Origin: Actinomycetota bacterium
GTDB taxonomy: Bacteria > Actinomycetota > JBBINU01
NCBI GenBank assembly: GCA_037443725.1
Contig: JBBINU010000004.1
Location: 239,451 to 303,450 of the forward strand
Length of the DNA: 64,000 nt
Direction: 5' to 3'
In this document: positions 16,039 to 48,868 of the stretch, in pieces
How the letters are laid out: each line of letters opens with the position of its first letter
Numbering within the stretch: the stretch's first letter is position 1
Program-made: the position numbers and the translations under genes
Notes under the pieces: model-generated
What the model was told of the DNA's origin: nothing
Database searches by the model: none
Seen by the model: only the letters and a program-made list of their open reading frames with translations

Positions 16039-16220
16039 GGCTGGGGCCGGACACGACGGGGCGGGCTCCAGCGGGAGCAAGCAAAGGGCTAGCCGCCTGC
16101 AAGCAGGTGGTGTAGGCTTCCCCCGACCGGAAAGACTCCTCTTCCCACTCCGGCCCCCAACCGGGCGCCCGAGGGGGAGACCTGGGGGAGGTCAATGAGA
16201 GGAGGGATCGGGAGGTGGTC

Positions 16221-27325: not shown

Positions 27326-30106
27326 TCAGGGAGGGGAGGGAGAACCCGGCGGGCCCGCCGGCGCCGCGCCTCCCAAGCTCTCTCTTGCGCGCCGGACTGA
27401 ATCCACCATGGCGGCGAGTTCCTTCCCGAAGGTCCCCCAGTCCCCGGCCTTGAGAGCCTCCTCAGCCCTGGCCCAGTGCTCCATGGCCTCGCCCAGAAGC
27501 CCGCCCACATCACCTCCGGATACCGGCGGCTGCTTGGCCCCGCTCAGCAGGGCCTGAAGGGCACCGGGGAGGTCCGGGGCGGTGGCCACCCTGTCCCCCA
27601 GCACCACCATGACCCTCTTAAGCTCCGGTACAGCGGTGGTGTTGGACTCGAGATACCAGGGCTGGACCGTGAGAAGGGAGGATTTGACTGGGATCACCAG
27701 CACGTTTCCCTGGATGACATTGGAGCCCTGCTGACCCCAGAGGGTCCTCAGCTGGCTCACGACGGGGTCGGCGTTGATCAGCGCCACCGTCTGGGCCGGT
27801 CCGGTAATGCTCTTTTGCTTCGGGAAGACGAAGGAGACAAGCTCACCATAGTTGGGAGGGTCGGAGCGGGCTGCCATCCAAGCCACCATGTTTGGACGGT
27901 TCACTGGGTTGAAGACGCCCATAAGAAGGAATTCGGGCCTCTGCTCCCCCGGGAGGCGCATCACCACGTAGTAAGGGGGCATCTTCCCCTCGCCAGGATT
28001 CACCGGATTGGCAGGCACTTCCCAGGCGTCCTCCTTGGAGTAGAAGTCGGCGGCGCTCCCAATGTGGTACAGACCCCAGACCGCCATCTGCACCTTGAAC
28101 AGGTCTTCGGGATAGCGAAAGTGGGCCAAGAGTTCGGCGGGGGCCTCCTCCACCGGGGTGAAGAGGCCGGGAAAGGCCCGGGACCAGGCCTCCAGGATGG
28201 GGTCGGGGGGGCCCTTCCCGCCGAGTCCCCTGTCCACGCGGTACAGGGTGATGGTCCCGTCATACGCGTCGACTGCGGCCTTTATGGAGTTGCGCATGTA
28301 GTTGACGGGTCCGGCCGGCGTCTGGACCGGCTCCGAGTACGGAAAGTTCGCGCTAGTGGTGTAGGCGTCGAGGATCCAAACGATCCTCCCCCCGACCACC
28401 GCCACATAGGGGTCGGAATCGAGGGTGAGAAAGGGGGCGACCTTCTCGACCCGGTCCTCTACAGACCTGTACATCATGATCTTCGAGTCCGGGGTGAGGA
28501 GGTTCGAGATGAGGAGGTTCAGATCGGCGAAGCGCCAGGCGAAGAGGGTCCGAAGGAGCCTGGATGACAGGCGGATCCCTCCCTTCCCCGTGTATACGGT
28601 GGCCTCGAAGGTCTCTCCCCTGGGATAGTCAAGCTCCTTCTGGGCGCTACCGACCACCACGTACCTGGTTTGCCCCTCTATCCTGGCGCCGAAGTAGACC
28701 TGGGGAACCCTGAGGGCGAGGGCTGGGGAGCCCGCGGGAGGAATGTCCTTCACAATGAATTCCGGCTGGCCATCCGGGGTCACCCTGTCCACCCTAGTCG
28801 CCACCACTCCGAACCCGTGGGTGTACACGAGATGCTGGTTCACCCAGGTGCGGGCAGACTCAGGGATCTCGGCCTGGGCCATCTCCCTGGCCGAGATCAT
28901 GACCTGGCGGAGCCCCCCATCCATGACGTACCTGTCCACGTCCACGTCGGAGAAGTGGTAGTAGGGGCGGATCTGCTGGAGCTGGGAGAAGTTCTTCTTC
29001 AGCACCTCCGGGTCCCAGAGCCTGATGTTGCTCACGGTGGCTGACTCTTCGGCCAGGTCCTCGGCTCCAAGGCTTACCTCGGCGGGGAACTCCTTTACAG
29101 CCACACGTTCCAGGCCAAAGCCCCTCCTGGTCCACTCGATGTTCCTCTGGATGTACTCCCGCTCCGCCTGGGACTCCTGTGGGGCGACCCTGAACTTCTG
29201 GACGAAAGCGGGGTAGACACCCCGAACTCCCAGGGAGACCAGGAAGAGGAGGCCCACGCTCACCGCCGGGAGCACCCAGCCCCTGGCGAAGACAGCAACC
29301 AGTGCGAGGAGGGAGGAGACGAGGGCCACCAGGGTGAGCAGCCTCAGTCCGGGAAGAACGGCGTGAACGTCAGTATAGGAGGCCCCCGCCACCACGCCCC
29401 GGCTGGACCCGAGAAGCCCGAGCTGGTCGAGGTAGTACCCCCAGGCCTTGAGGGCTAGGAGAAGGGCGACGAGGACGAGAAGGTGCCTCCTGGCGCCGCT
29501 GCTCACCCTCGGGCCCCCGGGAGCCAGGCCGAGGCCCCCGTGGATGTAGTGCCCGAGCAGGGAGGTGGCCAGCGCAAGCAGAAGAGCGGCAAGGAGAAGG
29601 TCAAAAACGGACCGGGCAAAGGGGAGACCGAAGACGTAGGCACCGGCATCCTTCCCAAAAAGGGGATCCCTGACCCCAAAGGGAACGGAGTTCCTGAAAA
29701 GGAGGAAGAGGGGCCAGGTCCGGGAGAAGCTCAGGGCAGCCGAGAGCCCTGCCAGGGAAGCAACAGCGAGAAGACCGTACTTCCAGTACCTCACCACGGC
29801 CACCCTGTACCCCGGGAAGACCAGCTCCAGGGGGCGGAAGGGACGATAGGCGGGGGCGAGGGAGGAAGCCAGGACCCCGCTGCCCAGCACCGCACCGAAG
29901 ATCGCCACTCCGGCGGCGAGGCCGAGAAGGACCTCGGTCCGGAGGATCGTGAGCATCACCCCGGTTCTTCCCACCTCGCGGTACCAGAGGTAGTCGGTGA
30001 GGAAAATCGCGAGCCTCCCGCCAAGCCCGAGGAGGAGACCCAGTCCGAGCAGTCCAAGGAAGGCGCGGATCCCGAAGGCCCTCGCCCTTTCGTTCTCTCT
30101 CCTCAC
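27326..30106 (-). CDS. UPF0182-family large integral membrane protein
   Basis: The 926-aa product has seven or more N-terminal TM helices followed by a large extracytoplasmic domain containing the YTHGFGVV motif characteristic of UPF0182 proteins. Confidence 0.8.
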   Translation of the reverse strand: MRRENERARAFGIRAFLGLLGLGLLLGLGGRLAIFLTDYLWYREVGRTGVMLTILRTEVLLGLAAGVAIFGAVLGSGVLASSLAPAYRPFRPLELVFPGYRVAVVRYWKYGLLAVASLAGLSAALSFSRTWPLFLLFRNSVPFGVRDPLFGKDAGAYVFGLPFARSVFDLLLAALLLALATSLLGHYIHGGLGLAPGGPRVSSGARRHLLVLVALLLALKAWGYYLDQLGLLGSSRGVVAGASYTDVHAVLPGLRLLTLVALVSSLLALVAVFARGWVLPAVSVGLLFLVSLGVRGVYPAFVQKFRVAPQESQAEREYIQRNIEWTRRGFGLERVAVKEFPAEVSLGAEDLAEESATVSNIRLWDPEVLKKNFSQLQQIRPYYHFSDVDVDRYVMDGGLRQVMISAREMAQAEIPESARTWVNQHLVYTHGFGVVATRVDRVTPDGQPEFIVKDIPPAGSPALALRVPQVYFGARIEGQTRYVVVGSAQKELDYPRGETFEATVYTGKGGIRLSSRLLRTLFAWRFADLNLLISNLLTPDSKIMMYRSVEDRVEKVAPFLTLDSDPYVAVVGGRIVWILDAYTTSANFPYSEPVQTPAGPVNYMRNSIKAAVDAYDGTITLYRVDRGLGGKGPPDPILEAWSRAFPGLFTPVEEAPAELLAHFRYPEDLFKVQMAVWGLYHIGSAADFYSKEDAWEVPANPVNPGEGKMPPYYVVMRLPGEQRPEFLLMGVFNPVNRPNMVAWMAARSDPPNYGELVSFVFPKQKSITGPAQTVALINADPVVSQLRTLWGQQGSNVIQGNVLVIPVKSSLLTVQPWYLESNTTAVPELKRVMVVLGDRVATAPDLPGALQALLSGAKQPPVSGGDVGGLLGEAMEHWARAEEALKAGDWGTFGKELAAMVDSVRRARESLGGAAPAGPPGSPSPP

Positions 30107-30280: not shown

Positions 30281-31690
30281 TCATCCTGAGGCCCGGAGAG
30301 CTGCAGGCACGGGGACCACCGAACACCTGCAGCCCGGATGCGCCGGGGGCGAATCGTGGCCCGAGGGAAAGGAGGCACCGGGAATCACGGAGCCCGCAGC
30401 GGCATTTGCCCGACAGGACTCTCCAGGACAGTCGTCCTCGTCAGCGAGGACCCAGACGACGGAAAGCCCCCGGGCTGCAGCCCCCGCGAGCACCCCCGCC
30501 GAGTACGCCCTCACCGCTGCGCCCTCGGCGAAGCGCGGGGCCCACTCCGTCCGGAGCCTCGAGAAGGCCTCCACGAGCTCCCCCTCAGTGGAGGCCCGCT
30601 GGACAGCGGTGCCGACCTCCCCCACGAAGGCGGCTGCCGCCCCCAGGGCCACTTCCTCCGCGTCTACCACTCCCGACCTAGCAGGCTCCCCTTCGCCAGC
30701 CTCCCCCGCCAGGTACCGGGCGTCCGTGGAGCCCACGCTGAAACCGAAGTAGAAACCCCCCGCCAGAGCGTCCTTAACCCTCTCAAGGGCCCCCCGGAGG
30801 GCCAGCATGCCTGAGGCCCCCGCTCTGAAGGATGAGAGATACAGTTCCTCCTCTCCCTGCAACGCCTTCACAACCCGTCTCAGCATCTCCTCACGGATGG
30901 CCTGGAGTCCCGCCTCCCGTAGGGAAAGGGGATCGGTGGCAAGGGACCCCACCGGGGAGGCCTCGCCCTCCACCGCTGGAGCCTCCTCCCCACCAGGCTT
31001 CGGCATGGCTGCCTCCCCACCGCCGGAGGCCACGGGTCGAGACTCAGCTGCGGCCGCCTCCTCGCCGCCGAAACTGGCCAGGGCCGGTTCCGACGCCAGG
31101 GTCTCGAGGGCGGGGGCGAGGACTGCCTGGGCCCGACGGACGGCCTCAACCAGCCGGCGGTGGACTCTGGCAAGGGCATCTGCCTCCCTCTGGAGCTGCT
31201 CCAGCCGGGATCTGGCCAATTCCACCTCCTCGCTAACCTTCTCGAGCTCCGCTCTGGCCTCCTCTTCTGCCCTCGCCCTGGCGCCCTCCAGGATGCTCTC
31301 CGCCTCCTGCCTGGCCTGAGCCAGAGTCCGGGCCGCCTCCTCCCGAGCCTCGGCCTGCACCTCCTCCGCGAGCCGTCTGGCTTCTTCCAGCAGGGCCTGG
31401 GAGGCGGCCTCGGCAGCCTCCAGAACCTGCCTCACCCGCTCCTCCTGCTCAGCTCTGATCCTGGCCTCGTGCTCCCTCTCGAGTTCTAGCGCCCTGTTCC
31501 TTGCCGATTCCATGGCGGCCGCCCTTATCCTGGCCGCCTCCTCCATCGCCCCGGCCAGGACGTTCTCGAGGGCGGCTCTCGCCCTCTCCGCCCACCCCGA
31601 CGTGGCCTCTTCCCTCTCTTCCCGCACTTCATTCACGGCTCTCACCCCCGCTCGCGGTTCCGCCACGCACCCCGGCATTGGAAAAATCAT
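30281..31690 (-). CDS. Coiled-coil protein with a C-terminal MuF/SPP1-gp7-like 4-Cys domain (paralog 1)
   Basis: A Glu/Ala/Arg-rich coiled-coil fills the N-terminal two-thirds. The C-terminus reads …WVLADEDDCPGESCRANAAAGSVIPGASFPSG…PPAHPGCRCSVVPV. An RBS GGGAGGGGGGG precedes the ATG. It is clearly paralogous to the next gene. Confidence 0.7.
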   Translation of the reverse strand: MIFPMPGCVAEPRAGVRAVNEVREEREEATSGWAERARAALENVLAGAMEEAARIRAAAMESARNRALELEREHEARIRAEQEERVRQVLEAAEAASQALLEEARRLAEEVQAEAREEAARTLAQARQEAESILEGARARAEEEARAELEKVSEEVELARSRLEQLQREADALARVHRRLVEAVRRAQAVLAPALETLASEPALASFGGEEAAAAESRPVASGGGEAAMPKPGGEEAPAVEGEASPVGSLATDPLSLREAGLQAIREEMLRRVVKALQGEEELYLSSFRAGASGMLALRGALERVKDALAGGFYFGFSVGSTDARYLAGEAGEGEPARSGVVDAEEVALGAAAAFVGEVGTAVQRASTEGELVEAFSRLRTEWAPRFAEGAAVRAYSAGVLAGAAARGLSVVWVLADEDDCPGESCRANAAAGSVIPGASFPSGHDSPPAHPGCRCSVVPVPAALRASG

Positions 31691-32966
31691 CCGTCTCCCC
31701 CCCTCCCACCCCCGGCGTGACGGGAAGCAGGGCGCAGCGGCATCCGGGGTGGGCCGGTGGACCCCAGGCTCCCGATGCGAACCTCACCCCCGGCGCGCGG
31801 GGGCCCTCCGCAGCGTTCGCCCGGCAGACCCCTCCCGGGCAGGACCCCTCTGTCCCTACCACCCAGACCAGCCCCATCCCCCTGCTCCACGCCTCCTCCA
31901 CAAAACCCGCGAAGTAGGCGGAGGAGGCGAGGTCCTGGCTCCAGGCAGGCAGGAGTCGGTGCCTCCCCCTCCGCATCGCCCGTATCATGCCGGGCTCTCC
32001 GGAAGGGCCCGTTGCCTCGAGGTCCTTCCTTATTTCCGCCATGAGCCGAGTAGAGGCTCCTAGCGCGAGCTCCCGTGCGGACGGGAGGGCGGGTGTCGGC
32101 AGCGCCCCCACCTTCCCGACCCCCGCCTCCTCGGCGAGGAAGGCGGCATCCTTTCCCCCCAGCCTCCTCGTCTCCTCCACAAGATCCAGAAGGCCCCAGG
32201 CGAACCTCTCCTCGGCCAGGCTATCCAATTGTCCTTGAAGCAGAGCCCTTTCCTCCTCGAGTCCCAAGAGCTCCCTGGATCTTCTCAGGATGTCTTCGCC
32301 CGCCCGGAACAGGCTCGAGTCCCGGAGAGCAAGCACCTCGGGAGGGCCCTGCCTCTCCGAAAAGGGAAGGCTCAGGGGAACCTCCCTTTCCGCCAGGAGA
32401 GTCCTTCCCGGAGGCCGTGGGAGACCCCCAACCTCGGCCATACCGGCCAACCCAGCCCGGGGCCCCTCCACGCCGAGAGCCTGACTCGCCTGCACCAACC
32501 TCGCCGCCAGCTCCGCCCTCGCCCCTTCCAGGCGCGAGACAGCCTCTTTAAGGCCCTCCGCCTTCAGCCTGAGCCGGGCGAGTTCCTCCTCTTCGGCGCT
32601 CCTCCTCCGGACCACCTCCTCCTCCACGTCACGCAGGAATTGGTGGGCTCTCTCCCTCGCCCTCGCCACCACTTCCTCCGCCTGCTTCCTCGCCGTCTCA
32701 AGAACCTCCCCGGCAGCCCGGAGGAGAGACCCCGCCCGCTCCCGAGCCTCCTCGAGCAGGCGCCTCGCCTGCTCCTCGGCCTCCCCCCGCCTCTTCCTCC
32801 CCTCCTCTTCGGCCTCGGCCAGAAGAGAGGAGGCCCGCTCCCGAGCCTCCTGAACAACCCGGGATGCCTCCTCCTCGGCCCTCCTCATCACCTGCTCCAG
32901 GGCGGAGGCCAGCTCGGACTCGGGCCCGGGGCCTTCAGCGGCAATCCCACCTTCAGCGGCAAACAC
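31629..32966 (-). CDS. Coiled-coil protein with a C-terminal MuF/SPP1-gp7-like 4-Cys domain (paralog 2)
   Basis: The N-terminus aligns with paralog 1 (ALEQVMRRAEEEASRVVQEA versus ALENVLAGAMEEAARIRAAA). The C-terminus reads …WVVGTEGSCPGGVCRANAAEGPRAPGVRFASG…PPAHPGCRCALLPV. The start is placed at the GTG 9 nt after GAGGG. The TTG at 32975 is also possible. Confidence 0.7.
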   Translation of the reverse strand: MFAAEGGIAAEGPGPESELASALEQVMRRAEEEASRVVQEARERASSLLAEAEEEGRKRRGEAEEQARRLLEEARERAGSLLRAAGEVLETARKQAEEVVARARERAHQFLRDVEEEVVRRRSAEEEELARLRLKAEGLKEAVSRLEGARAELAARLVQASQALGVEGPRAGLAGMAEVGGLPRPPGRTLLAEREVPLSLPFSERQGPPEVLALRDSSLFRAGEDILRRSRELLGLEEERALLQGQLDSLAEERFAWGLLDLVEETRRLGGKDAAFLAEEAGVGKVGALPTPALPSARELALGASTRLMAEIRKDLEATGPSGEPGMIRAMRRGRHRLLPAWSQDLASSAYFAGFVEEAWSRGMGLVWVVGTEGSCPGGVCRANAAEGPRAPGVRFASGAWGPPAHPGCRCALLPVTPGVGGGETDDFSNAGVRGGTASGGESRE

Positions 32967-33144
32967 AACGCACAACCCTCTTCTTCTTTTCTTCTATTCT
33001 TCTAAACCAGCCTCATCCCCATCATCTCGATCAAGAAGCTACTCCCTTATCGGAAGGGGGCAGCCCTTCTTTAGCCACCCTCGCGCCTGCCCCCCACGCC
33101 CGCCCTCTCCCTGGCCGCTTCTCCCTCCAGGGCAGGGATCACTT

Positions 33145-34332
33145 CTACCCCCAGGGGGAAGGACTTGGGGAGGGAGCTCCGCCAAGAAGACCGCCCACAG
33201 CCCCCAGGACCTCGCCGACCAGGTCCTCGAGCAGCCCAGGGGCGGGAGACGGCCCCGGAGAGGGCGCACCTCCCCCTCCACCGGCTCCCGAACCACCTCC
33301 CGCCTGCCCTCCCTCTCCACTGGCTCCCGGACTGCTCCCTCCCTCACCCCCCGCGCGGCTCCCGCCCCCGGCCTCCCCGGTTCGGCCTCGACCAGCCCCG
33401 GAGCGCCCGACCGACGGCCCTCCAGACGAAGGTGGCGGAGCCGCAAGAGTCCTGCCCCAGGAGGCCATGATGGAAGCCACCTCCCTCACCGCCTTCTCAG
33501 GGTCAACCCCGCTAGCCTGGACTACAAGACCCCAGGAAGCTCCGGCCCTTCGGAAGGAGAGAGCCTGGCTGAAGGAGCTCCTCGGGTCCCCCTTGGTGAG
33601 AGAGGCAATGACCCCGGCAATCACGAGCTCCGAAGGGAGCCCATCGAACCCGAAGGCCAGGTCCTTAAGGGCCTGGGGCGCAGCGGCCACGATGGCAGCG
33701 AGCCCGAGCCTCCCGACCCTGGAGTCGAACCCCCTCGCCAGGCTCTCCAGCTCCGGCCCGGCTTCAAGGGCCGGACCAAGGTACTTCCGGTCCCAGCGGT
33801 CGGAAGCCCTTAGCCTATAGGGCTCGGGCTGAAGCACCCGACCGGCCGTCGCCGCCGCCTGCCAGTAAGCCCGCACCACCACCTCGCCCCCCTCCGCTAG
33901 GGCCCCGACCTCGCCCGAGTAGCTGCCCACCCGCGTGCCAACCCCCACATCCATGCGGAAGACCCCCCTCCCCGTGGCCACCGCCTCCGGGCCCTCGACC
34001 CGGAAGGGCCGAGCCGCCTCTGCCAGGACCATTCCCCTCGCCAGGCGGACCTCCCCCCTTCCTACCTGGACCCTGGTTCCCGGACCGAGCTCCAGGCGGG
34101 CCGAAGCGAACTCCAGGACCGCCCAGGCACCTGGTGAGGCCTCCACCACCCACCCCGGCGGGACCGCCACCCTCCCCGAGACCGGCTCCAGCGCCCCGGC
34201 CCCGGCCCTCACTTTCCCCTCCAGGACCTCGAGGACCGCGCCTCCCTCGGGGCGCCCAGGAGAGCGACAACCTGGAAGGCCCGCCACCAGCACCAGGGAG
34301 AGAAGAAAGCCGAGGGGAGCCGGGGACCTCAT
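33145..34332 (-). CDS. FecR-domain-containing putative lipoprotein with a Gly/Ser/Ala/Pro-rich C-terminal tail
   Basis: A signal peptide with a lipobox-like LVAGLPGC is followed by a FecR-like beta-rich sensing domain (…GRVAVPPGWVVEASPGAWAVLEFASARLELGPGTRVQV…) and a roughly 90-aa low-complexity G/S/A/P tail. Its start lies 7 nt after the histidine-kinase stop. Confidence 0.65.
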   Translation of the reverse strand: MRSPAPLGFLLSLVLVAGLPGCRSPGRPEGGAVLEVLEGKVRAGAGALEPVSGRVAVPPGWVVEASPGAWAVLEFASARLELGPGTRVQVGRGEVRLARGMVLAEAARPFRVEGPEAVATGRGVFRMDVGVGTRVGSYSGEVGALAEGGEVVVRAYWQAAATAGRVLQPEPYRLRASDRWDRKYLGPALEAGPELESLARGFDSRVGRLGLAAIVAAAPQALKDLAFGFDGLPSELVIAGVIASLTKGDPRSSFSQALSFRRAGASWGLVVQASGVDPEKAVREVASIMASWGRTLAAPPPSSGGPSVGRSGAGRGRTGEAGGGSRAGGEGGSSPGASGEGGQAGGGSGAGGGGGAPSPGPSPAPGLLEDLVGEVLGAVGGLLGGAPSPSPSPWG

Positions 34333-34339
34333 GCCCGCC

Positions 34340-36913
34340 TCACCTCCCGCCTGCGGCGGAGGATCGCCGCACCCCGCCTCCCCTCCCGCCCCGAGAGGCT
34401 ACGCGGGCGCGCTTCCGGACCCCTGCCCGGGCCTCCGGGAAGAGGAGGGAAAAGGTGCTGCCCTCCCCCGGCGAGGACTCCGCCTCTACCTTCCCCCCAT
34501 GGGCTTCCATTACCCTTCTAACAAAGGCCAGGCCGAGCCCGAGGCCGCCGAAGCGCCGGGTGGATGAGGGGTCCTCCTGGGTGAAGTCCCCGAAGACCTG
34601 GGGGAGGAAGGCCGGGTCCACCCCCACCCCCGAGTCGATAACGGCGAGCCGCACCCACCTTCCGTTCTCCCTCGAGGCCGAGACCTCGACCCGCACAGGC
34701 CCCCCTCCCGGGGAGTACTTCACGGCGTTGTCAAGGAGCTCCTCCAGGGCCCTTCGGGCCAGGTGCGGGTCGGCCCGGGCAGGGGGAACCCGACCCCTCC
34801 TCACCACGCTGAACTCCCGCGCGGGCTCTCTCCTCAAGAAGGAAGCCACGCATTCCTCAGCCAGGGCGGCAAGGTCTAGGGGTTCGGTCCTGGCCGCCAG
34901 GGCTCCTCCCTCCATGGCCGCAAAATCCAGCAGGATCCCCACCACCCGCTCCATTCTGGAGGCGGCCTCCCTCACCGCCTCCAGCATCTTCCTTCTCTCC
35001 TCCTCCCCTGGGTCCTTTCTCAGGATGAGATCGACAAAACCCCTAATGGGCGTGAGGGGTGTCCTGAGCTCGTGGGAGACGTTGGCGAGGAAGGCCCTCT
35101 TCATCCTCTCCGCCTCCGCCTCCCGCGTGATGTCCCTAAGGAGCACCACCTTGCCCGCCCCTTCGCCGAAGGAGGCCGCGCGGGCTGCCACAGCTTTGCC
35201 CTCCTTGCCGGCCAGGCCCAGGCAGGAGCCCGTCGAGAGGAGCACATCCCAGAGGTCCCGGCCCGAGCTGTCCTTGAGGGGGAGGACCTCCCAAGGCCTC
35301 TTCCCAAGCATCTCTCCGGAGGGAAGGCCCGCCAGGCTTTCCGCAGCTGGGTTCGCCGCCACCACCACGTTCGCCGGGTCCACAGCAAGGAAGGCATCGC
35401 TCATCCCGGCCATCATCGCTTCCAGCCTCGACCTGAGCTCGGCCTCCTGCCGGAGGGCCCTGCTCAGACCCTCTGCAGCCCCCTCCAGCTCAACGGCCAT
35501 CTCACGGAAGGCCCGGCTCAAGTCCCCGATCTCGTCGGGACGTCCCGTGTCGAACACGGGAGGGGGGCCACCCAGCCGGAAGGCCTTCACCGCCGCCGCC
35601 ATCTCCACCAGCGGGCGGGCGAGCCTCTCCCCAAGAGCGGCCCCCGCGCCTCCCACCAGAAGTACTCCCAGCAGGGCGAGGCCCGTGGAGACGCGGGCTG
35701 TCCCTGCTTCCAGCCGCTCAAGCCCGGCCTGGGGTGCGGCCAGCGCTAATGCCGCCACTATCTCGCCGTCGGGACGCGTGAGGGGAACAGCCGAGACCAC
35801 GTAACCCCGGCCAAGAATCCTCGTCCTTTCCCCTTTCTCCAGCACGGCCCGCTCGAGCTCAGCCACCCCTCTGCCCAGAAGCTCGGCGGGGGAAGAAACC
35901 CGGAGGGAGCTCGCCACCACCGCGCCCCTTCTCAGGATGGCCACCTCCACCCCAGACTCCGCCCTCACCCTCTCAGACCAGTCCCTGTCCAGCCTGATGC
36001 CGGCCGCCACTGCCCCGGCCACCCTCTCCGGCTCCCGTGTGGAGCGGACGGGGCTTGCAGCCAGCACCGCCACCCCGCCTGGAGGGAGGAGGTCCAGGCT
36101 GGAAGAGGAGACCCCGTCCAGAGCCGACCTTGCCTCCTCCGACCCGGAAAGACCCAGAGCCTCCGAAGAGGAGAGCCCCGAGGAGTCGAGGACCACCCCC
36201 CGGGAGTCCAGAAAGGCAAGGAAGTCGAGGTAGGGGAAGAGCTGGCGGCGGAACTCCTCGGCAGCGCCGGCGAGAAAACGCCCACCCGTTAGCTGGTCCT
36301 GGATGGATCGGTTCTGGGCCAGGACCAGCCCAGCCTGGCTCACCGTCGCCCTCACGAGATCCAGGCTGTTCGCCCTCGCCACGGCGAGCCCCTCTAGCCT
36401 CTCCAGCTCACCCGAGCGCAGGCGGCGGGCCAGCACCCACGTGGTGGGGAGGGCCACCGCCAGGGCGGCGCCCACCAGGGTCACGACAGCCACAACCACC
36501 GCACGCTCTCTAAGGCTCCCCGCGGAAGCCCCCCAGATCCACCACCAGAAGATGGCCCCCCCGAGGACAAGGCCCGCCTGAGCGGTTCCGGGCCGCCCGA
36601 GGAGAAGGAGGGAGGAACCCGCGAAGAGGAGAAGACCCGCGAGGAGCCCATTCTGGCGGAACCTCCGCTCCAGAGCGAAGCCGCCTACCCCAAGGAGGGA
36701 CCCCCCACCCACCGCGGCCGAGGCGACGCCCTGGGGGAGTCCGATACCGGCCGCGGCGCAGCCCAGGCCGGCCAGGCAGAGGCCCGCGGCGAGGAGGCGC
36801 CTCCCGAAGCGCCCGCCCTCCTTCCCCACCACCAGGAGCCAGGCGGCGGTGAGGCTGGCACCCGCCCCTACGAGGGAGGAAAGGACGGGGAGGACGGTCC
36901 GGAGGGACTCCAC
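34340..36913 (-). CDS. Sensor histidine kinase (multi-TM N-domain, extracytoplasmic sensor, HAMP, PAS, HisKA, HATPase_c)
   Basis: Five or six N-terminal TM helices are followed by a roughly 270-aa loop, another TM, a HAMP-like segment, a PAS domain, the H-box VSHELRTPLTPIRGFVDLIL and N/G1/G2 ATPase boxes (…GGLGLGLAFVRRVMEAHGG…). No response regulator is adjacent. Confidence 0.85.
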   Translation of the reverse strand: MESLRTVLPVLSSLVGAGASLTAAWLLVVGKEGGRFGRRLLAAGLCLAGLGCAAAGIGLPQGVASAAVGGGSLLGVGGFALERRFRQNGLLAGLLLFAGSSLLLLGRPGTAQAGLVLGGAIFWWWIWGASAGSLRERAVVVAVVTLVGAALAVALPTTWVLARRLRSGELERLEGLAVARANSLDLVRATVSQAGLVLAQNRSIQDQLTGGRFLAGAAEEFRRQLFPYLDFLAFLDSRGVVLDSSGLSSSEALGLSGSEEARSALDGVSSSSLDLLPPGGVAVLAASPVRSTREPERVAGAVAAGIRLDRDWSERVRAESGVEVAILRRGAVVASSLRVSSPAELLGRGVAELERAVLEKGERTRILGRGYVVSAVPLTRPDGEIVAALALAAPQAGLERLEAGTARVSTGLALLGVLLVGGAGAALGERLARPLVEMAAAVKAFRLGGPPPVFDTGRPDEIGDLSRAFREMAVELEGAAEGLSRALRQEAELRSRLEAMMAGMSDAFLAVDPANVVVAANPAAESLAGLPSGEMLGKRPWEVLPLKDSSGRDLWDVLLSTGSCLGLAGKEGKAVAARAASFGEGAGKVVLLRDITREAEAERMKRAFLANVSHELRTPLTPIRGFVDLILRKDPGEEERRKMLEAVREAASRMERVVGILLDFAAMEGGALAARTEPLDLAALAEECVASFLRREPAREFSVVRRGRVPPARADPHLARRALEELLDNAVKYSPGGGPVRVEVSASRENGRWVRLAVIDSGVGVDPAFLPQVFGDFTQEDPSSTRRFGGLGLGLAFVRRVMEAHGGKVEAESSPGEGSTFSLLFPEARAGVRKRARVASRGGRGGGVRRSSAAGGR

Positions 36914-37028
36914 GCAAGGATTATATGGTTCCCACCAGGCACCACATCAGCCGCCGCGGGGCCTGGACCCCGTAACCGGGGGGCGCCTCAACCCGCTTAG
37001 TAGGGCAGGTGAGACGAAAGGAGGTGAG

Positions 37029-37547
37029 ATGAGAACGACCTTCCTGGGACCCTTCCTCGCCGCCCTGCTCGGGTTCGGAGCGACCGGCAGCGCCATATTC
37101 GCCGCCTCCCACGGGGTCGGTCCCTTCAAGGCCGAGCCCGTGATCTCGGGCGAGGCCTCCGTGGGGAATGGGGCTGCCGTGGGGCAGGGTGAGAGCAGGG
37201 GAGAGGTCGCGGAGTCCACCCCCTCAGAGGAACCCGCACCCTTGGAGGGAACGGCCGAGACAGGGGAGTCCCCCGAGGTCAGACCCACCAACCACGGCTT
37301 CTACGTGTCGCAGGCGGCCAAGTGTGGTGAGGCGAGCGACGGCTCGGTCGCCTTCACCCCTCCCAGCCCGTGCGAGGGAAGGGAGAAGGGGGAGTACGTG
37401 AGCGGGGTGGCCCGGAGCGACCTCGGCAAGCCCACCCCGGCACCGGAAGTGACCCCAGGGTCGAGGGATCACGAGGAAGCTGGGGAAGAGCACGGCTCCT
37501 CCTCGAGCCAACAGGGCAAGGGGAAGGGAAAGCAGAAGGGAGAGTAG
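37029..37547 (+). CDS. Small secreted protein (signal peptide, acidic, 2 Cys), hypothetical
   Basis: The start at MRTTFLGPFLAALLGFGATGSAIFAAS (a signal peptide) is preceded by AGGAGGTGAG. The track's 36849 start adds 60 non-hydrophobic residues overlapping the HK gene. Confidence 0.5.
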   Translation: MRTTFLGPFLAALLGFGATGSAIFAASHGVGPFKAEPVISGEASVGNGAAVGQGESRGEVAESTPSEEPAPLEGTAETGESPEVRPTNHGFYVSQAAKCGEASDGSVAFTPPSPCEGREKGEYVSGVARSDLGKPTPAPEVTPGSRDHEEAGEEHGSSSSQQGKGKGKQKGE

Positions 37548-37669: not shown

Positions 37670-38755
37670 TCACATCCTCCCCCCCTCAGAGATGAGGAAG
37701 TCCACGGCCTCTTTCAGGCTGGAAACCCCAACCACCCTGATCCGCCGCGCTGCCTTTCTGGCTTCGGAGAGATCCTCCCGGGGAACGAGAAAGAACTCGG
37801 CACCCGAGGCCTCGGCCGCCCTCACCTTCTGCGCCACTCCTCCGACGGGGCCGACCTTCCCCTCCTCGTCGAGGGTTCCCGTCCCCGCCACCCGGTGTCC
37901 GCCCGTGAGGTCCCCCGGCGTTAGATGATCCACGATGGCCAGGGCGAAAACCAGTCCTGCCGAGGGTCCGCCTATCTCCTTTGTCTCAATGGCTACCTTG
38001 AAAGGAAGACGGTACGCCGTCTCGAGGACCGCCCCCACCATGGGCTTCCCCGCCTCCAGGGTGGACTCGATGGTCCCCACGCTGAGTTCGAGCGTCTCTC
38101 CCCCCCGCCTCACGGTGAAGCTGACTTTCTCCCCCACCCGCCTGGCCTTCACGGCCTCGCTCACCTCCCGGGGCTCCTTCACCGGTCTTCCGTCCACGGC
38201 AATAATCACGTCCCCCTCCTCAAGGACACCCCGGGCGGGGGTGTCCTTCAGCACCCGCATCACCTTCACCCCCTCCTCGGGGCGGACCTCGTAGCCGAGG
38301 AACCTCAGGGCGGCCACGGCCGCCCTCTCCTTGCTCGCCTCCATTTCCTCGAGGTTGAGCTCGTCCTGCTCTTCCTCGGAAAGACCGTGGGGGTTCACGA
38401 GAGACCTCGGCAGGAGCTCCACGGAAGGGTCGAGAGCTTTTCGGAACAGGTCCTGCACCCCCGCCACGTCGAGACGTACGGTGGTTAGCATGAGCTCGCC
38501 CTGGGGAGGATAGGATCTCGCCCCTTCCACCCTGACGAGGGGCTCCACATTCTCAGCCGGTCCCGGAGTCACCACGTAGCAGGACCCTGGGGAGATGAGG
38601 CACCCCGGCTGCCCGGCATTCCTCACCACCACCGCGCCCGCGGCGGCCACCACAAAAAGAAGCACGGCTCCGAGGAGCCTGCCCGCCCGCCGAAGTCGCC
38701 TCCGGGGCGGGGGTGGGAGAATCTCACTCGCCCCTGTTCCTTCCTGCCCCTCCAT
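37670..38755 (-). CDS. PDZ-domain plus Lon-protease-C-terminal (S16) domain protein, YlbL/SdrC-like
   Basis: An N-terminal TM helix is followed by a PDZ domain (…GDVIIAVDGRPV…) and a Lon_C-like domain with the Ser region (…GPSAGLVFALAIVD…). The start is placed at MEGQEG. The track ORF's first 59 aa are Arg-rich and unlikely to be coding. Confidence 0.8.
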   Translation of the reverse strand: MEGQEGTGASEILPPPPRRRLRRAGRLLGAVLLFVVAAAGAVVVRNAGQPGCLISPGSCYVVTPGPAENVEPLVRVEGARSYPPQGELMLTTVRLDVAGVQDLFRKALDPSVELLPRSLVNPHGLSEEEQDELNLEEMEASKERAAVAALRFLGYEVRPEEGVKVMRVLKDTPARGVLEEGDVIIAVDGRPVKEPREVSEAVKARRVGEKVSFTVRRGGETLELSVGTIESTLEAGKPMVGAVLETAYRLPFKVAIETKEIGGPSAGLVFALAIVDHLTPGDLTGGHRVAGTGTLDEEGKVGPVGGVAQKVRAAEASGAEFFLVPREDLSEARKAARRIRVVGVSSLKEAVDFLISEGGRM

Positions 38756-38980
38756 CGCCTCCAAGTCTTTCTCCGGAATCCAGCTCGGGGGCCAGCCCCG
38801 GCCCCGCGCCCGCCCGCCGCGCCCCTGTATACTCCTGCCCGTGAGCGAGTTCCTGCAAGGTGTGCTGGCTGCCGCCGCCGGGGGTGCCCTCCTCACGGCC
38901 CTGGTAGTCGCCCTCACACCCGGATCCGACAAGGGCGAGGCGGAAGGGGAAAGGGAGCACTGAGTCGGCGTCAGCCATTC

Positions 38981-40107: not shown

Positions 40108-41247
40108 GTGGAGCCGGCTTCCTTTCCCGAGCTGCCCCCCGAGGTCATGGCGAGGATCCCCCTCTTCAGGGAGATCCAGAGGGTCCTTGCATGGACGGGA
40201 GGGCCCGTCAACTGGGAGCTAGCGAGGCAGGTCGCGGTCGCTGTGGCTGCGTCCAGTGGAGACGCCTCCCCCTCCGAGCGGGAGCTCGCGGCCTTCCGGG
40301 AGCTGGCCGCCCTGGCTGAGGCCTGGGTCCAGGAGGCCACCGGGCTGGAGGCTCCCCCCGCTCCCGCTTTCCTCTTCTCCCGCTCGGACTGGGCCGAGGC
40401 AGCCATCGGCCCCTTCTCCAAGCTGCTCGAGCCCCTGTTTGAAAGGCTCTCCTTCTTTCTCAAGGAAGATGCCGAGGGACCCCTTGCGGGGGCCGTGGAA
40501 AGGCTGCTGCCGGTGGTCCTCGGCGTGCAGGCCGGAGCCGTCCTCGGCCACCTCGCCCGGGAGGTCCTCGACCCTCTCCTCCTCCCGATCCTCCCTCCCC
40601 GGCTCGGAAGGATAGGCGCCGTCCTGCCCAACCTGAGGGAGGCCGAGAGGGGGTACGGTCTTCAGAAAGAGGAGTTCCATCTCCGCCTTCTCCTGTCGAC
40701 CTCGACGAGAAGGGCATTCCTCGAGGGAGCTGGGTGGGCCGGCGAGCACCTGGCCCGGCTCTTCGCCGACCACGTGCGGGAGATGACCTTCGAGCTCTCC
40801 GAGGCTGCGAGGAACCTGATGGAGACGGATCCGAGAGATCTGGATGCCCTCCAGAGGGCCCTCTCGGGAGCGGCAGGGCCCATCGGCCTGGTGGCCGTAG
40901 CCGGGGAGGGGCTTCCGCCCTTAAGGTGGTTTCTTCTGCTTCTCCACGCCTCCGCGGAGAGGGTGGCGGAGGAGGTGGCGCGGGCGAGGATGGGAGGGGC
41001 GGCCAGGTCCGGGGAGGCCCTCAGGAGGATAAGCCTGGAGCCGGGCGAGGGAACAAGGCTCCTCGTTGAGATAGCCGGGTACCGCATCGAGCCCCAGCAC
41101 CGCGCGAGAGCCGAGGCCTTCTCGGCACGGCTGGCCGAGGAAGGGGGAACCCCTCTCCTCGGGAAGCTCTGGGCATCCCCGGCCAATCTCCCGACTCCGG
41201 AAGAGCTCGCGGACCCTCTGGCCTGGGTGGCCAGGGTGGGAAGATGA
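40108..41247 (+). CDS. DUF2342-family putative zinc-dependent metalloprotease/hydrolase
   Basis: The N-terminal 'NWELARQVA' motif and the overall pattern resemble the actinobacterial DUF2342 family. This family is often annotated as F420-biosynthesis-associated; that link is recalled from annotations, not shown here. Confidence 0.65.
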   Translation: MEPASFPELPPEVMARIPLFREIQRVLAWTGGPVNWELARQVAVAVAASSGDASPSERELAAFRELAALAEAWVQEATGLEAPPAPAFLFSRSDWAEAAIGPFSKLLEPLFERLSFFLKEDAEGPLAGAVERLLPVVLGVQAGAVLGHLAREVLDPLLLPILPPRLGRIGAVLPNLREAERGYGLQKEEFHLRLLLSTSTRRAFLEGAGWAGEHLARLFADHVREMTFELSEAARNLMETDPRDLDALQRALSGAAGPIGLVAVAGEGLPPLRWFLLLLHASAERVAEEVARARMGGAARSGEALRRISLEPGEGTRLLVEIAGYRIEPQHRARAEAFSARLAEEGGTPLLGKLWASPANLPTPEELADPLAWVARVGR

Positions 41248-48865: not shown

Positions 48866-48868
48866 CCT

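What the first reader, a model, noticed from the sequence alone, without database searches (positions are those of the whole stretch)
30281..32975. Tandem paralogous coiled-coil proteins ending in a 4-Cys, phage-MuF-like (…PPAHPGCRC) domain, with no prophage context
Two adjacent, overlapping minus-strand genes encode paralogs (about 469 aa and about 445 aa). Their N-terminal two-thirds are Glu/Ala/Arg-rich coiled-coil, reminiscent of ATP-synthase b or DivIVA-like segments. Their C-termini align closely: WVLADEDDCPGESCRANAAAGSVIPGASFPSG-HDSPPAHPGCRCSVVPV versus WVVGTEGSCPGGVCRANAAEGPRAPGVRFASG-AWGPPAHPGCRCALLPV.

The pattern W-[VI]…D…[T/C]RP/CPG…H/C…A..G…F……PP.HP.CRC matches what I recall as the conserved C-terminal core of the phage head-morphogenesis domain (Mu gpF / SPP1 gp7, Pfam Phage_Mu_F). 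There, a 'tRPsHaaldG' segment and a terminal 'HPNCRC' are characteristic. In these proteins the usual R-P-x-H is replaced by C-P-G-x-x-C. Together with the terminal C-R-C this gives a four-cysteine set that could bind zinc.

No portal, terminase, capsid or integrase gene is present anywhere in the window. The MuF-like module is at the C-terminus, not at the N-terminus as in phage MuF-toxin fusions. The pair is embedded in a chromosomal operon with a sensor kinase, a FecR-domain lipoprotein and a UPF0182 membrane protein. A chromosomal, duplicated, coiled-coil-fused MuF-like module of this kind is not something I know to be described.
Basis: partly seen in the sequence, partly recalled or inferred. 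Interest (0 to 1): 0.8.

Follow-up and report, generated by a model that had tools for sequence, protein, structure and literature searches.

The report
Domesticated phage MuF domain beside UPF0182
Two neighbouring genes encode long-helix proteins whose last ~215 residues are a cellular, non-prophage descendant of the phage MuF/SPP1-gp7 minor head protein; they are a duplicated, DivIVA-less offshoot of a large undescribed actinobacterial family that always sits just upstream of the membrane-quality-control gene UPF0182.

Summary
Two overlapping minus-strand paralogues (30281-31690 and 31629-32975; BLASTP E=3e-37) each end in C-x4-C ... PPAHPGCRC, and the 64 kb window has no phage genes.

The MuF guess is right at the superfamily level only:
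- Pfam PF04233 is far below threshold (11.5 vs 29.6 bits for A; no hit for B).
- A family profile aligns over 210 columns with bona fide PF04233 proteins (hhalign 99.6%, E=3.5e-24).
- A confident AF2 model (pLDDT 89.6) matches phage head-morphogenesis/MuF proteins almost exclusively.

The domain defines a big cellular family: 741 cluster representatives at E<=1e-30 and at least 422 species genomes, mostly Acidimicrobiia. The usual architecture is DivIVA N-domain, coiled coil, linker, MuF-like domain, annotated only as 'DivIVA domain-containing' or 'hypothetical'.

The gene lies immediately upstream of UPF0182 in 79/79 genome loci and 57/57 metagenome loci, and downstream of PDZ/Lon_C in 74/74. 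Viral homologues instead follow a portal gene (9/10).

The Cys/His set is family-wide, not special to this pair. What is special here is the tandem duplication and the loss of the DivIVA head, seen in one other metagenome contig.

Function is inferred: a cytoplasmic scaffold or adaptor coupled to UPF0182.

The parts
30281..31690 (-). Gene A: 469 aa from the ATG (about 451 aa if the GTG at 31636 is the true start). Long helix, then disordered linker, then MuF-like domain.
   Evidence: ORF list. Paralogous to B, E=3e-37. Orthologue N-terminus in L083. Start-codon context.
31094..31654 (-). A residues 13-199: a single uninterrupted Glu/Ala/Arg-rich helix (putative coiled-coil stalk).
   Evidence: AF2 full-length model: helix 13-199, pLDDT >90 for about residues 40-185. 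E+A+R+L+Q+K make up 75% of residues. Hydrophobic periodicity 3.65; power at 3.5 exceeds shuffles, p~0.011.
30935..31093 (-). A residues 200-252: Pro/Gly/Ala/Glu-rich disordered linker.
   Evidence: pLDDT <50 for residues 201-252. P+G make up 27%.
30302..30931 (-). A residues 254-463: MuF-like domain, a helical bundle plus a small beta/Zn-knuckle-like C-terminal subdomain.
   Evidence: AF2 with 122-sequence alignment: pLDDT 89.6, pTM 0.88. hhalign vs PF04233 set 99.6%, E=3.5e-24. Foldseek BFVD hits to MuF/head-morphogenesis proteins.
30323..30430 (-). A putative metal-ligand segment: C421-x4-C426 ... H451-P-G-C454-R-C456.
   Evidence: Sequence. Family conservation: His and the C-x-C in 150/150 (partly by construction; 151/153 fetched proteins carry the motif), at least one loop Cys in 150/150.
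31629..32975 (-). Gene B: 448 aa from TTG, or 445 aa from the GTG at 32966. Same architecture as A, plus a 28-aa Gly/Ser-rich tail that overlaps the start of A.
   Evidence: ORF list. P0005 is the identical 445-aa database protein. Orthologue P0013/L083 at 65% identity. RBS-like GAGGG upstream.
31716..32369 (-). B residues 203-420: MuF-like domain.
   Evidence: Aligns with A and the family. Member of the profile that matches PF04233 proteins.
31734..31841 (-). B putative metal-ligand segment: C379-x4-C384 ... H409-P-G-C412-R-C414. It lacks the 'SGH' His that A has.
   Evidence: Sequence. Alignment columns.
27326..30106 (-). UPF0182 membrane protein, immediately downstream of A on the same strand (174-nt gap). 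This is the invariant syntenic partner of the family.
   Evidence: PF03699 E=8e-268. Downstream on the same strand in 79/79 genome loci and 57/57 metagenome loci. Distance-matrix correlation with the family domain r=0.83.
33145..34332 (-). FecR-like putative lipoprotein, an accessory neighbour.
   Evidence: Weak PF04773 hit, E=0.28. Lipobox-like LPGC in the sequence. Homologues at the same position in L015, L032 and L037.
34340..36913 (-). Sensor histidine kinase (dCache_3-HAMP-PAS-HisKA-HATPase_c), an accessory neighbour.
   Evidence: Pfam. Same position in L015, L032, L037, L062, L063 and L069.
37670..38932 (-). PDZ + Lon_C protease-like protein, the conserved upstream landmark of the locus.
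   Evidence: Pfam. Upstream on the same strand in 74/74 genome loci with a hit.
40108..41247 (+). Zincin_2 metallopeptidase-like gene, a divergent outer landmark of the conserved block.
   Evidence: PF10103 E=1e-48. Found upstream on the opposite strand in many loci.

Best explanation
A and B are cytoplasmic scaffold-type proteins. Each has a ~185-residue helical stalk, a flexible linker and a ~215-residue acidic C-terminal domain. That domain is an exapted (domesticated) copy of the complete phage MuF/SPP1-gp7 minor head protein, stabilised by a Cys/His metal knuckle: loop Cys(s) plus H-P-G-C-R-C.

They belong to a large, vertically inherited actinobacterial family, mainly Acidimicrobiia. Its usual form is a single gene encoding a DivIVA N-domain, coiled coil, long linker and the MuF-like domain. 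That gene is fixed between PDZ/Lon_C and UPF0182.

In the window's lineage the gene was duplicated in tandem. Both copies lost the DivIVA membrane-targeting head and changed the first knuckle from C-x2-C to C-x4-C.

Inferred mechanism: in phages, MuF docks on the oligomeric portal encoded by the adjacent gene. By analogy, the cellular MuF-like domain serves as a protein-docking module for the product of its invariant neighbour. That neighbour is UPF0182, a 7-TM protein predicted to form a tetrameric dome and implicated in FtsH/YccA membrane-protein quality control. The stalk, and DivIVA where present, would provide oligomerisation and positioning. A and B probably pair through their stalks.

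Shown: paralogy, MuF-superfamily homology, fold, family size, architecture, synteny, absence of phage context, duplication. Inferred: metal binding, A/B pairing, physical or functional coupling to UPF0182.
For: Homology:
- hhalign of the family profile vs 20 PF04233-annotated proteins: 99.6%, E=3.5e-24, 210 columns.
- Foldseek of a pLDDT-89.6 model against BFVD: 41 hits at E<=1e-3, named ones almost all head-morphogenesis, minor capsid or MuF proteins.
- PF04233 is the top recurrent weak Pfam hit, 21/122 members.
- P0003 matches model positions 4-111 of 112 at E=1.3e-3.

Family size and architecture:
- 741 cluster representatives at E<=1e-30, with the domain always C-terminal in the 150 listed.
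- At least 422 species genomes.
- DivIVA N-domain in 70/76 untruncated ORFs and confirmed by Pfam and NCBIfam.

Synteny:
- UPF0182 downstream on the same strand in 79/79 genome loci, median 125 nt; PDZ/Lon_C upstream in 74/74.
- Replicated in metagenome loci, 57/57.
- Viral homologues: 0/45 with UPF0182, and 9/10 have a portal gene upstream.

Vertical inheritance: Mantel r=0.83 with UPF0182.

Duplication: A, B and P0013 form an exclusive clade. All 160 other loci are single-copy. The B->A tandem is also present in L083.

Cytoplasmic and unlikely to bind DNA: no TM segment, and domain pI about 4.9 with net charge about -11.

Metal site: every member has at least one loop Cys plus an invariant H..C.C. 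Ligand swapping occurs in phage relatives, where R..H in the first knuckle co-occurs with His->Asp in the second.

UPF0182 role: bioRxiv 10.1101/2025.11.14.688347. MuF-portal relationship: PMC5576092.
Against: - No direct evidence of any interaction. Synteny and correlated distances also follow from shared vertical descent alone.
- UPF0182 is described as having a large periplasmic domain, so its cytoplasmic surface for docking may be small.
- The molecular function of MuF itself is unknown apart from gp7's portal and DNA binding.
- Heptad periodicity is not significant for B.
- Co-transcription is not shown. The promoter and terminator scans were uninformative, and a 174-nt gap separates A from UPF0182.
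- Other Actinobacteria keep PDZ/Lon_C and UPF0182 adjacent without this gene (own knowledge of M. tuberculosis Rv3193c-Rv3194c). It is therefore not an obligatory UPF0182 partner.
Confidence: 0.55

Rival explanations
1. Same identity (an exapted MuF-like domain on a DivIVA-type scaffold), but its function has nothing to do with UPF0182. It would be a polar or septal cytoskeletal protein of the DivIVA/Wag31 type whose C-terminal Zn domain recruits some other client, such as cell-wall or division machinery. Its position next to UPF0182 would be a frozen accident of gene order.
For: Relatives have a genuine DivIVA N-domain. DivIVA proteins are known recruitment hubs (established knowledge). Correlated distance matrices are expected from shared descent alone: the PDZ/Lon vs UPF0182 control also gives r=0.64.
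Against: Gene order is invariant across 136 informative loci whose proteins differ on average at about 55% of positions, with a short same-strand gap (median 125 nt). That degree of conservation usually reflects co-expression or functional linkage. The accessory insertions (kinase, FecR-like) go upstream of the gene and never between it and UPF0182.
Confidence: 0.25
2. The MuF-like domain keeps the nucleic-acid-binding activity reported for SPP1 gp7. The proteins would tether DNA or RNA to the membrane or pole (through DivIVA in relatives), acting as a chromosome- or RNA-organising factor.
For: gp7 is described as a DNA-binding protein targeted to the procapsid via the portal (reference titles cited in PMC5576092). 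DivIVA-anchored DNA tethers are known, for example RacA and ParB (own knowledge).
Against: The domain is strongly acidic across the family: median pI 4.94 and net charge about -11; A 4.8, B 5.9. Whole proteins A and B carry net charges of -26 and -12. No HTH or other nucleic-acid-binding domain was detected.
Confidence: 0.1
3. A decayed prophage remnant or mobile-element cargo: leftover MuF minor-head genes, possibly former MuF-toxin fusions, with no cellular role.
For: About 96% of muf genes in bacterial genomes are in prophages or remnants (PMC5576092). Sub-threshold hits to phage head-morphogenesis families.
Against: No phage gene in the 64 kb. GC content is in line with the flanks. The chromosomal position is fixed in hundreds of species, with vertical co-inheritance. 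The ORFs are intact with conserved motifs. There are no PADLOC hits. Viral homologues are much more distant and sit next to portal genes.
Confidence: 0.03
4. The similarity to MuF is a chance or convergent resemblance of a short Cys-rich motif. The domain would be an unrelated 'unknown Cys-rich domain'.
For: Single-sequence Pfam scores are far below threshold (A 11.5 bits, E=0.52; B none). No PDB structure is available to anchor the fold.
Against: The profile-profile alignment spans 210 columns including the helical N-terminal part, E=3.5e-24. Fold search, which is largely independent of sequence identity (about 15% in the matches), returns MuF and head-morphogenesis proteins almost exclusively. 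Intermediate sequences bridge the two sets (P0003, P0004).
Confidence: 0.02

Closest known systems
Phage MuF / SPP1 gp7 minor head (head-morphogenesis) proteins, Pfam PF04233 Phage_Mu_F, TIGR01641
   Same: Homologous over the whole ~215-residue domain (hhalign 99.6%). Same predicted fold. Same terminal F-P-S/T-G-H..P.-H-P-x-C-R-C motif, and in one PF04233 subfamily the same C-x-x-C first knuckle.
   Different: Below Pfam's gathering score. Chromosomal, vertically inherited, never next to portal or terminase genes. Placed at the C-terminus of a long scaffold protein rather than standing alone or at the N-terminus of toxin fusions. More acidic. The neighbour is UPF0182 instead of a portal.
Actinobacterial DivIVA-domain proteins (Wag31/DivIVA, SepIVA, GpsB-like; Pfam PF05103, TIGR03544)
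   Same: Most family members start with a bona fide DivIVA N-domain followed by a coiled coil. Database names for relatives are 'DivIVA domain-containing protein'.
   Different: Window proteins A and B lack the DivIVA N-domain. Their only hit is compositional, to the coiled-coil part of the model (E=0.03), and the local DivIVA-N HMM finds nothing. No characterised DivIVA protein is known to me to carry a MuF-like C-terminal domain.
MuF polymorphic toxins (Jamet et al. 2017, PMC5576092) and polyvalent MuF fusions (Iyer et al. 2017, PMC5512222)
   Same: Multidomain proteins that use a MuF module as a docking or packaging adaptor.
   Different: In those, MuF is N-terminal with a C-terminal toxin or effector domain, and they are encoded in prophages beside the portal gene. 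Here MuF is C-terminal, no effector domain is present, and the context is housekeeping.
Conserved actinobacterial Zincin_2 / PDZ-Lon_C / UPF0182 block (M. tuberculosis Rv3195-Rv3194c-Rv3193c; M. smegmatis MSMEG1959)
   Same: The same three landmark genes flank the pair. UPF0182 is proposed to act in FtsH/YccA-linked membrane-protein quality control (bioRxiv 10.1101/2025.11.14.688347).
   Different: The mycobacterial block has no gene between PDZ/Lon_C and UPF0182 (own knowledge, not tested here). Acidimicrobiia and the window insert the DivIVA-MuF-like gene there. The window lineage adds a second copy plus a kinase and a FecR-like gene.

Membership tests
Pfam PF04233 Phage_Mu_F (strict family membership) | Sequence scores at or above Pfam's gathering threshold (29.6 bits) | tested here: not met
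   A: 11.5 bits, E=0.52. B: no hit. Domain-only A: 14.2 bits. Among 122 family members, 21 give E<0.1 (best 1.8e-4), all below the threshold.
MuF superfamily (homology level) | Significant profile-profile similarity to bona fide MuF proteins over the domain | tested here: met
   hhalign A3 vs A5 (20 PF04233-annotated proteins): probability 99.6%, E=3.5e-24, 210 aligned columns.
MuF superfamily (homology level) | Same three-dimensional fold as phage MuF / head-morphogenesis proteins | tested here: met
   Model pLDDT 89.6. Foldseek vs BFVD: top hits E=3.7e-6, probability 1.00, TMq up to 0.69, named hits almost all MuF, minor capsid or head-morphogenesis proteins. Both sides of the comparison are predicted structures. 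No experimental MuF structure was found.
MuF superfamily (homology level) | Conserved C-terminal H-P-x-C-R-C motif preceded by the W..D..[R/C]xx[H/C] knuckle | tested here: met
   A: WVLADEDDCPGESC...AHPGCRC. B: WVVGTEGSCPGGVC...AHPGCRC. Aligned with PF04233 proteins.
Phage MuF proteins (functional class: virion minor head protein) | Encoded in a (pro)phage packaging module, typically immediately downstream of the portal gene | tested here: not met
   No portal, terminase or capsid gene in the window or in the gene table of related locus L082. Viral homologues do have a portal gene upstream, 9/10.
Phage MuF proteins (functional class: virion minor head protein) | Binds the portal oligomer and is packaged in the capsid | not testable with these tools
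   Needs biochemistry. No portal gene exists in this context.
DivIVA family (PF05103 / TIGR03544) | N-terminal DivIVA lipid-binding / crossed-loop domain (F..[RK]GY...EV..FL) | tested here: not met
   A: none. B: E=0.03, aligned only to the coiled-coil part of the model, positions 64-114. A local HMM built from Pfam-positive relatives finds it in 70/76 relatives but not in A or B.
Unnamed Acidimicrobiia 'DivIVA-MuF-like, UPF0182-linked' family (defined here) | C-terminal ~215-aa domain matching the family | tested here: met
   The A domain alone finds P0002 (E=2.9e-7) and P0003 (E=8.5e-7). tblastn of the A domain vs genome loci gives down to E=1e-20. A and B are only about 31% identical to the main family and lack its KLKRVLADEQN and YREWKTQRI motifs.
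Unnamed Acidimicrobiia 'DivIVA-MuF-like, UPF0182-linked' family (defined here) | Gene lies immediately upstream of UPF0182 on the same strand and downstream of PDZ/Lon_C | tested here: met
   Window order is PDZ/Lon_C 37670-38932, B, A, UPF0182 27326-30106, all on the minus strand. Family rule: 79/79 and 74/74; 57/57.
Unnamed Acidimicrobiia 'DivIVA-MuF-like, UPF0182-linked' family (defined here) | Single copy per locus | tested here: not met
   The window has two tandem copies. All 80 genome and 80 metagenome loci have one. Only L083 shares the tandem.
Zinc-knuckle / treble-clef-like metal site | Four Cys/His ligands positioned to coordinate one metal ion | not testable with these tools

The most novel reading that the evidence does not exclude
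A phage portal-docking module (MuF) was captured once by an ancestor of the Acidimicrobiia. It was fused to a DivIVA scaffold and repurposed to dock on, position or gate the oligomeric UPF0182 membrane dome that regulates FtsH-type membrane-protein quality control. This would be a structural phage protein domesticated into core cell-envelope homeostasis. The window lineage would have evolved a heteromeric A/B version under the control of a dedicated sensor kinase and FecR-like sensor.
Probability: 0.25. Interest if true: 0.8.

Novelty: new variant of a known kind. Interest (0 to 1): 0.62.

Why it matters
MuF is one of the most widespread phage virion domains, yet it has no known molecular function and no solved structure. 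Until now it was considered almost exclusively prophage-borne: about 96% of bacterial copies according to PMC5576092.

A vertically inherited cellular version that is conserved across a whole bacterial class is a clear case of exaptation of a phage structural protein. It is fused to the polar scaffold DivIVA and locked next to UPF0182.

This has two practical consequences:
- It gives a cellular context in which to work out what the MuF fold actually binds.
- It nominates a concrete cytoplasmic candidate partner for UPF0182, an enigmatic, universally conserved actinobacterial membrane protein only recently linked to FtsH/YccA quality control.

It also shows that hundreds of proteins annotated only as 'DivIVA domain-containing' or 'hypothetical' share an unrecognised domain that deserves its own family model.

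Tried and rejected
1. Single-sequence family scans (Pfam, NCBIfam, PHROGs) gave only sub-threshold hits, so they could not settle the question. A profile-level test was needed.
2. The word-indexed search with A's C-terminal half found only four proteins and wrongly suggested rarity. The exhaustive HMMER search corrected this.
4. Weak NCBIfam hits of the helices to V-ATPase E, FliH, YscL, ATP-synthase b and Wag31 were judged compositional: Glu/Ala/Arg-rich sequence, 15-27 bits against cut-offs of 130-280. They were not used.
5. Defence-system reading: no PADLOC hits for A, B, the FecR-like gene or UPF0182.
6. Prophage reading: rejected (see rivals).
7. The window's organism could not be identified. 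Exact-match look-ups show only an unnamed NCBI contig of 306,963 bp. Its UPF0182 is about 40% identical to Acidimicrobiia loci, so it is a distant relative of unknown class.
9. Promoter and terminator scans were at chance level.
10. The apparently different architecture in L082 (a short family gene plus a 106-aa upstream gene) is a split of the normal gene, probably a frameshift.
11. The outgroup rooting of the NJ tree failed. Only the exclusive A+B+P0013 clade is used.

Full report
OBSERVATION

Gene A is 30281-31690 (-), ATG start, 469 aa. Gene B is 31629-32975 (-), TTG start, 448 aa, or 445 aa from the GTG at 32966, which is the form present in public data as P0005. They overlap by 62 nt.

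An orthologous contig (L083) starts the A-like gene further in. This suggests A may begin at the GTG at 31636, in a GTGAATGA start/stop overlap with B, giving about 451 aa.

A and B are full-length paralogues (BLASTP E=3e-37, 34% identity). Both quoted C-terminal strings are present.

About 45 large ORFs spread over the whole 64 kb are housekeeping genes. They include Obg, ProB, L21, tRNA-Met, MoeA/MoaA, acyl-CoA ligases, a RuBisCO-like protein, AFOR, an AdnAB-like helicase-nuclease pair, permeases and an amidase. There is no portal, terminase, capsid or integrase gene. GC content across the pair (0.69-0.70) is within the range of the window.

ANATOMY

A single-sequence AF2 model of full-length A gives three parts:
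- one uninterrupted helix at residues 13-199 (pLDDT >90 over about residues 40-185);
- a disordered Pro/Gly/Ala/Glu linker at residues 201-252;
- the C-terminal domain.

With a 122-sequence alignment, the C-terminal 225 residues fold confidently (pLDDT 89.6, pTM 0.88). The fold is four long helices followed by a small strand-helix-strand subdomain that carries the Cys/His residues.

The helical stalk is therefore about 40% of the protein, not two-thirds. Hydrophobic periodicity peaks at 3.65 residues. Power at 3.5 exceeds shuffles for A (p~0.011) but not for B. A coiled coil is plausible but not demonstrated.

Neither protein has a transmembrane segment. Both are acidic, with net charges of -26 and -12.

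IS THE C-TERMINAL DOMAIN MuF-LIKE?

Single-sequence scans are only suggestive:
- PF04233: E=0.52 for A (11.5 bits vs a 29.6-bit threshold), nothing for B.
- TIGR01641 (SPP1 gp7): E=1.8e-3.
- The 'head morphogenesis' family phrog_1657: E=1.5e-3.

Three further lines make the relationship solid.

1. Bridging sequences. Relatives of A include P0003, which matches PF04233 positions 4-111 of 112 at E=1.3e-3, and P0004, which just passes Pfam's threshold.

2. Profile-profile comparison. A 22-sequence family profile was compared with 20 PF04233-annotated proteins, one of which is named 'phage minor head protein'. The result is hhalign probability 99.6%, E=3.5e-24, over 210 columns. That covers the entire domain, including the helical part outside the 112-residue Pfam model.

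3. Fold. The AF2 model searched against predicted viral structures returns 41 hits at E<=1e-3, and almost every named one is 'phage head morphogenesis', 'minor capsid protein' or 'MuF-like minor capsid protein' (probability 1.00, TMq up to 0.69).

In addition, PF04233 is by far the most frequent weak Pfam hit across the family: 21 of 122 members, against 8 for the next family.

No experimental structure of this fold exists in the PDB copy.

Conclusion: A and B are members of the MuF superfamily by homology. They are not members of Pfam PF04233 by its curated cut-off.

THE LARGER FAMILY

The exhaustive HMMER search of 1.84 billion cluster representatives found 4669 proteins at E<=1e-3, 1533 at E<=1e-10 and 741 at E<=1e-30. 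In the 150 listed, the domain always lies at the extreme C-terminus of proteins 220-1041 aa long.

The long members share one architecture:
- an N-terminal DivIVA domain (PF05103 and TIGR03544 above threshold);
- a coiled coil;
- an acidic or Pro-rich linker of variable length;
- this C-terminal domain.

Their sources call them 'DivIVA domain-containing protein' or 'hypothetical protein'. No Pfam or NCBIfam model covers the C-terminal domain.

The best 80 are almost all Acidimicrobiia MAGs: Acidimicrobiales, Acidimicrobiaceae, Ilumatobacteraceae and Iamiaceae.

Family consensus: W-[VL]-V-D-x-x-G-x-P-C-P-D-[C/A]-[E/D]-D-N-A-L-A-G ... F-P-T-G-[H]-x-x-P-P-A-H-P-G-C-R-C.

In 150 members:
- The His and the C-x-C are invariant. 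This is partly by construction, but 151 of 153 fetched proteins have the motif.
- Every member has at least one loop Cys: 66 have C-x-x-C, 61 have only the first Cys, and about 20 only the second.

Bona fide phage PF04233 proteins show the same C-x-x-C ... H-P-G-C-R-C layout. Where the first knuckle is R-x-x-H, the second-knuckle His becomes Asp. That is the kind of ligand swapping expected of a metal site.

The window's peculiarity is a two-residue longer first knuckle (C-x4-C).

SYNTENY

This is the most informative result.

In the 80 genome loci:
- The family gene is followed on the same strand by UPF0182 in 79 of 79 loci where UPF0182 is detectable. The other four end within 260 nt. The median distance from the stop codon to the first aligned UPF0182 residue is 125 nt.
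- It is preceded on the same strand by a PDZ/Lon_C gene in 74 of 74 loci with a hit.
- Zincin_2 lies divergently further upstream in many loci.

An independent set of 80 metagenome loci gives 57 of 57 with UPF0182 downstream.

The window has the same order: Zincin_2 (+), PDZ/Lon_C, [kinase, FecR-like], B, A, UPF0182. The kinase and, less often, the FecR-like gene occur at the same place in only six or seven loci (L015, L032, L037, L062, L063, L069). They are an accessory insertion, always upstream of the family gene.

Viral-contig homologues are much more distant (best E=2e-9 vs 9e-21, mostly the last ~80 residues). None has UPF0182 (0/45) or PDZ/Lon_C. In 9 of 10 tested, the gene immediately upstream is a portal protein. 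That matches the published rule that muf genes follow the portal gene and that about 96% of bacterial copies are prophage-borne (PMC5576092).

Pairwise distances of the family domain correlate with those of UPF0182 across 67 loci (Mantel r=0.83, p=0.001). The PDZ/Lon vs UPF0182 control gives r=0.64. Mean divergence is similar, 0.56 vs 0.54. This shows stable vertical co-inheritance, not mobility.

WHAT IS SPECIAL ABOUT THE WINDOW

- All 160 other loci have one copy. The window has two in tandem.
- A, B and P0013 form an exclusive clade.
- L083, a 987-bp metagenome contig, carries a B orthologue (65% identity), followed 28 nt later by the start of an A orthologue. The duplication therefore predates the split of at least two organisms.
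- A and B lack the DivIVA N-domain that 70 of 76 untruncated relatives have.
- They also lack the family's KLKRVLADEQN and YREWKTQRI motifs and are only about 31% identical to the main family.
- The window's UPF0182 is about 40% identical to the Acidimicrobiia ones, so the organism is a distant relative. I could not name it.

MECHANISM

Shown:
- a cytoplasmic, acidic, long-helix protein with a MuF-derived C-terminal domain;
- a conserved Cys/His set;
- invariant placement upstream of UPF0182;
- vertical inheritance;
- lineage-specific duplication with loss of the DivIVA head.

Inferred:
1. The Cys/His set binds a structural metal.
2. The MuF-like domain is a protein-docking module. This is by analogy with gp7, which binds the portal oligomer encoded by its neighbour (PMC5576092).
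3. Its client is the product of the invariant neighbour, UPF0182. That protein is a 7-TM protein predicted to form a tetrameric periplasmic dome. It is phenotypically tied to FtsH and YccA in three distant Actinobacteria (bioRxiv 10.1101/2025.11.14.688347).
4. DivIVA, where present, positions the assembly at curved membranes.
5. A and B pair through their stalks.

I put about 0.9 on the identity and exaptation part and about 0.4-0.5 on the UPF0182-coupling part.

The main rival keeps the identity but denies any link to UPF0182, treating the synteny as a frozen accident (0.25). A gp7-like nucleic-acid-binding role is disfavoured by the domain's charge (0.1). The prophage-remnant and chance-similarity readings are effectively excluded.

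COMPARISON AND NOVELTY

The closest known entities are:
- phage MuF/gp7 minor head proteins: same fold and motifs, but different context, position in the protein and partner;
- actinobacterial DivIVA-domain proteins: same N-terminal half in relatives, but absent in A and B;
- MuF polymorphic toxins: opposite domain order, and prophage-borne;
- the conserved Zincin_2 / PDZ-Lon_C / UPF0182 block of Actinobacteria.

Searches of 8 million full texts found no paper that combines DivIVA with MuF, Phage_Mu_F or Acidimicrobiia. The proteins themselves sit in databases as unannotated hypotheticals.

I classify this as a new variant of a known kind: an exapted MuF domain in a new architecture and a fixed cellular context. 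It is moderately to highly interesting. It turns a 'phage-only' domain of unknown function into something testable in a cellular setting, and it supplies a candidate partner for UPF0182.

LIMITS

- All relatives are MAG or metagenome sequences.
- No coordinates were available to inspect the metal site.
- No multimer prediction was possible.
- Expression was not assessed.
- The 4669-hit count at E<=1e-3 certainly includes ordinary phage MuF proteins. The set at E<=1e-30 is my estimate of the cellular family.

Noticed in passing
window 36849-37547 (+): A 232-aa ORF with no Pfam or PADLOC hit lies between the kinase and PDZ/Lon_C, divergent from the kinase. An internal Met is followed by a signal-peptide-like stretch (MRTTFLGPFLAALLGFGATGSAIFA) and a Ser/Gly/Glu-rich region. 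It may be a small secreted protein, or it may not be a gene.
   Followed up: partly
window 34340-36913 (-): The dCache_3-HAMP-PAS histidine kinase has no response-regulator gene next to it among the ORFs scanned, so it is an orphan kinase. A homologous kinase occupies the same slot in six or seven Acidimicrobiia loci (L015, L032, L037, L062, L063, L069).
   Followed up: partly
window 31629-31715 (-), B residues 421-448: B carries a 28-residue Gly/Ser/Glu-rich tail after the MuF-like domain, and this tail overlaps the start of gene A. The orthologue P0013 has a comparable tail (…AMGSGESEERVSSAGVAG). A has only a short tail.
   Followed up: no
window 31094-31654 and about 32466-32924 (-): Hydrophobic periodicity of both N-terminal helices peaks at 3.65 residues rather than 3.5. 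This could be plain amphipathic-helix periodicity or a hendecad-type (11/3) right-handed coiled coil, like stator-stalk proteins. It may explain the weak hits to V-ATPase E, FliH and ATP-synthase b.
   Followed up: partly
L082 9260-10912: In this 1.78-Mb contig the family gene is called as a 106-aa gene plus a 303-aa gene. The 106-aa product is the family's own coiled-coil segment, so the gene is probably broken by a frameshift or assembly error rather than truly split.
   Followed up: yes
L033 and L043 (records titled 'uncultured Bifidobacterium sp.'): These MAG contigs carry the typical Acidimicrobiia PDZ-Lon / DivIVA-MuF-like / UPF0182 locus and closely resemble Ilumatobacteraceae loci (L035, L054). 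The taxonomic label is probably wrong.
   Followed up: no
alignment A5 (P0273, P0281 vs the rest): In phage-type PF04233 proteins the first knuckle alternates between C-x-x-C, x-x-x-C and R-x-x-H. In the two R-x-x-H sequences the His of H-P-G-C-R-C is replaced by Asp. This is compensatory-looking ligand swapping that supports a metal site in MuF proteins generally.
   Followed up: partly
window 11825-13666 (+) and 16215-17525 (+): A tungsten-type aldehyde:ferredoxin oxidoreductase and a RuBisCO large-subunit-like protein lie on the same contig. They may be clues to an anaerobic or thermophilic lifestyle for the unidentified host.
   Followed up: no
window 45583-51814 (-): Two adjacent UvrD-helicase + PD-(D/E)XK nuclease proteins (1135 and 981 aa) form an AdnA/AdnB-type pair, typical of Actinobacteria and consistent with the conserved chromosomal neighbourhood.
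   Followed up: no
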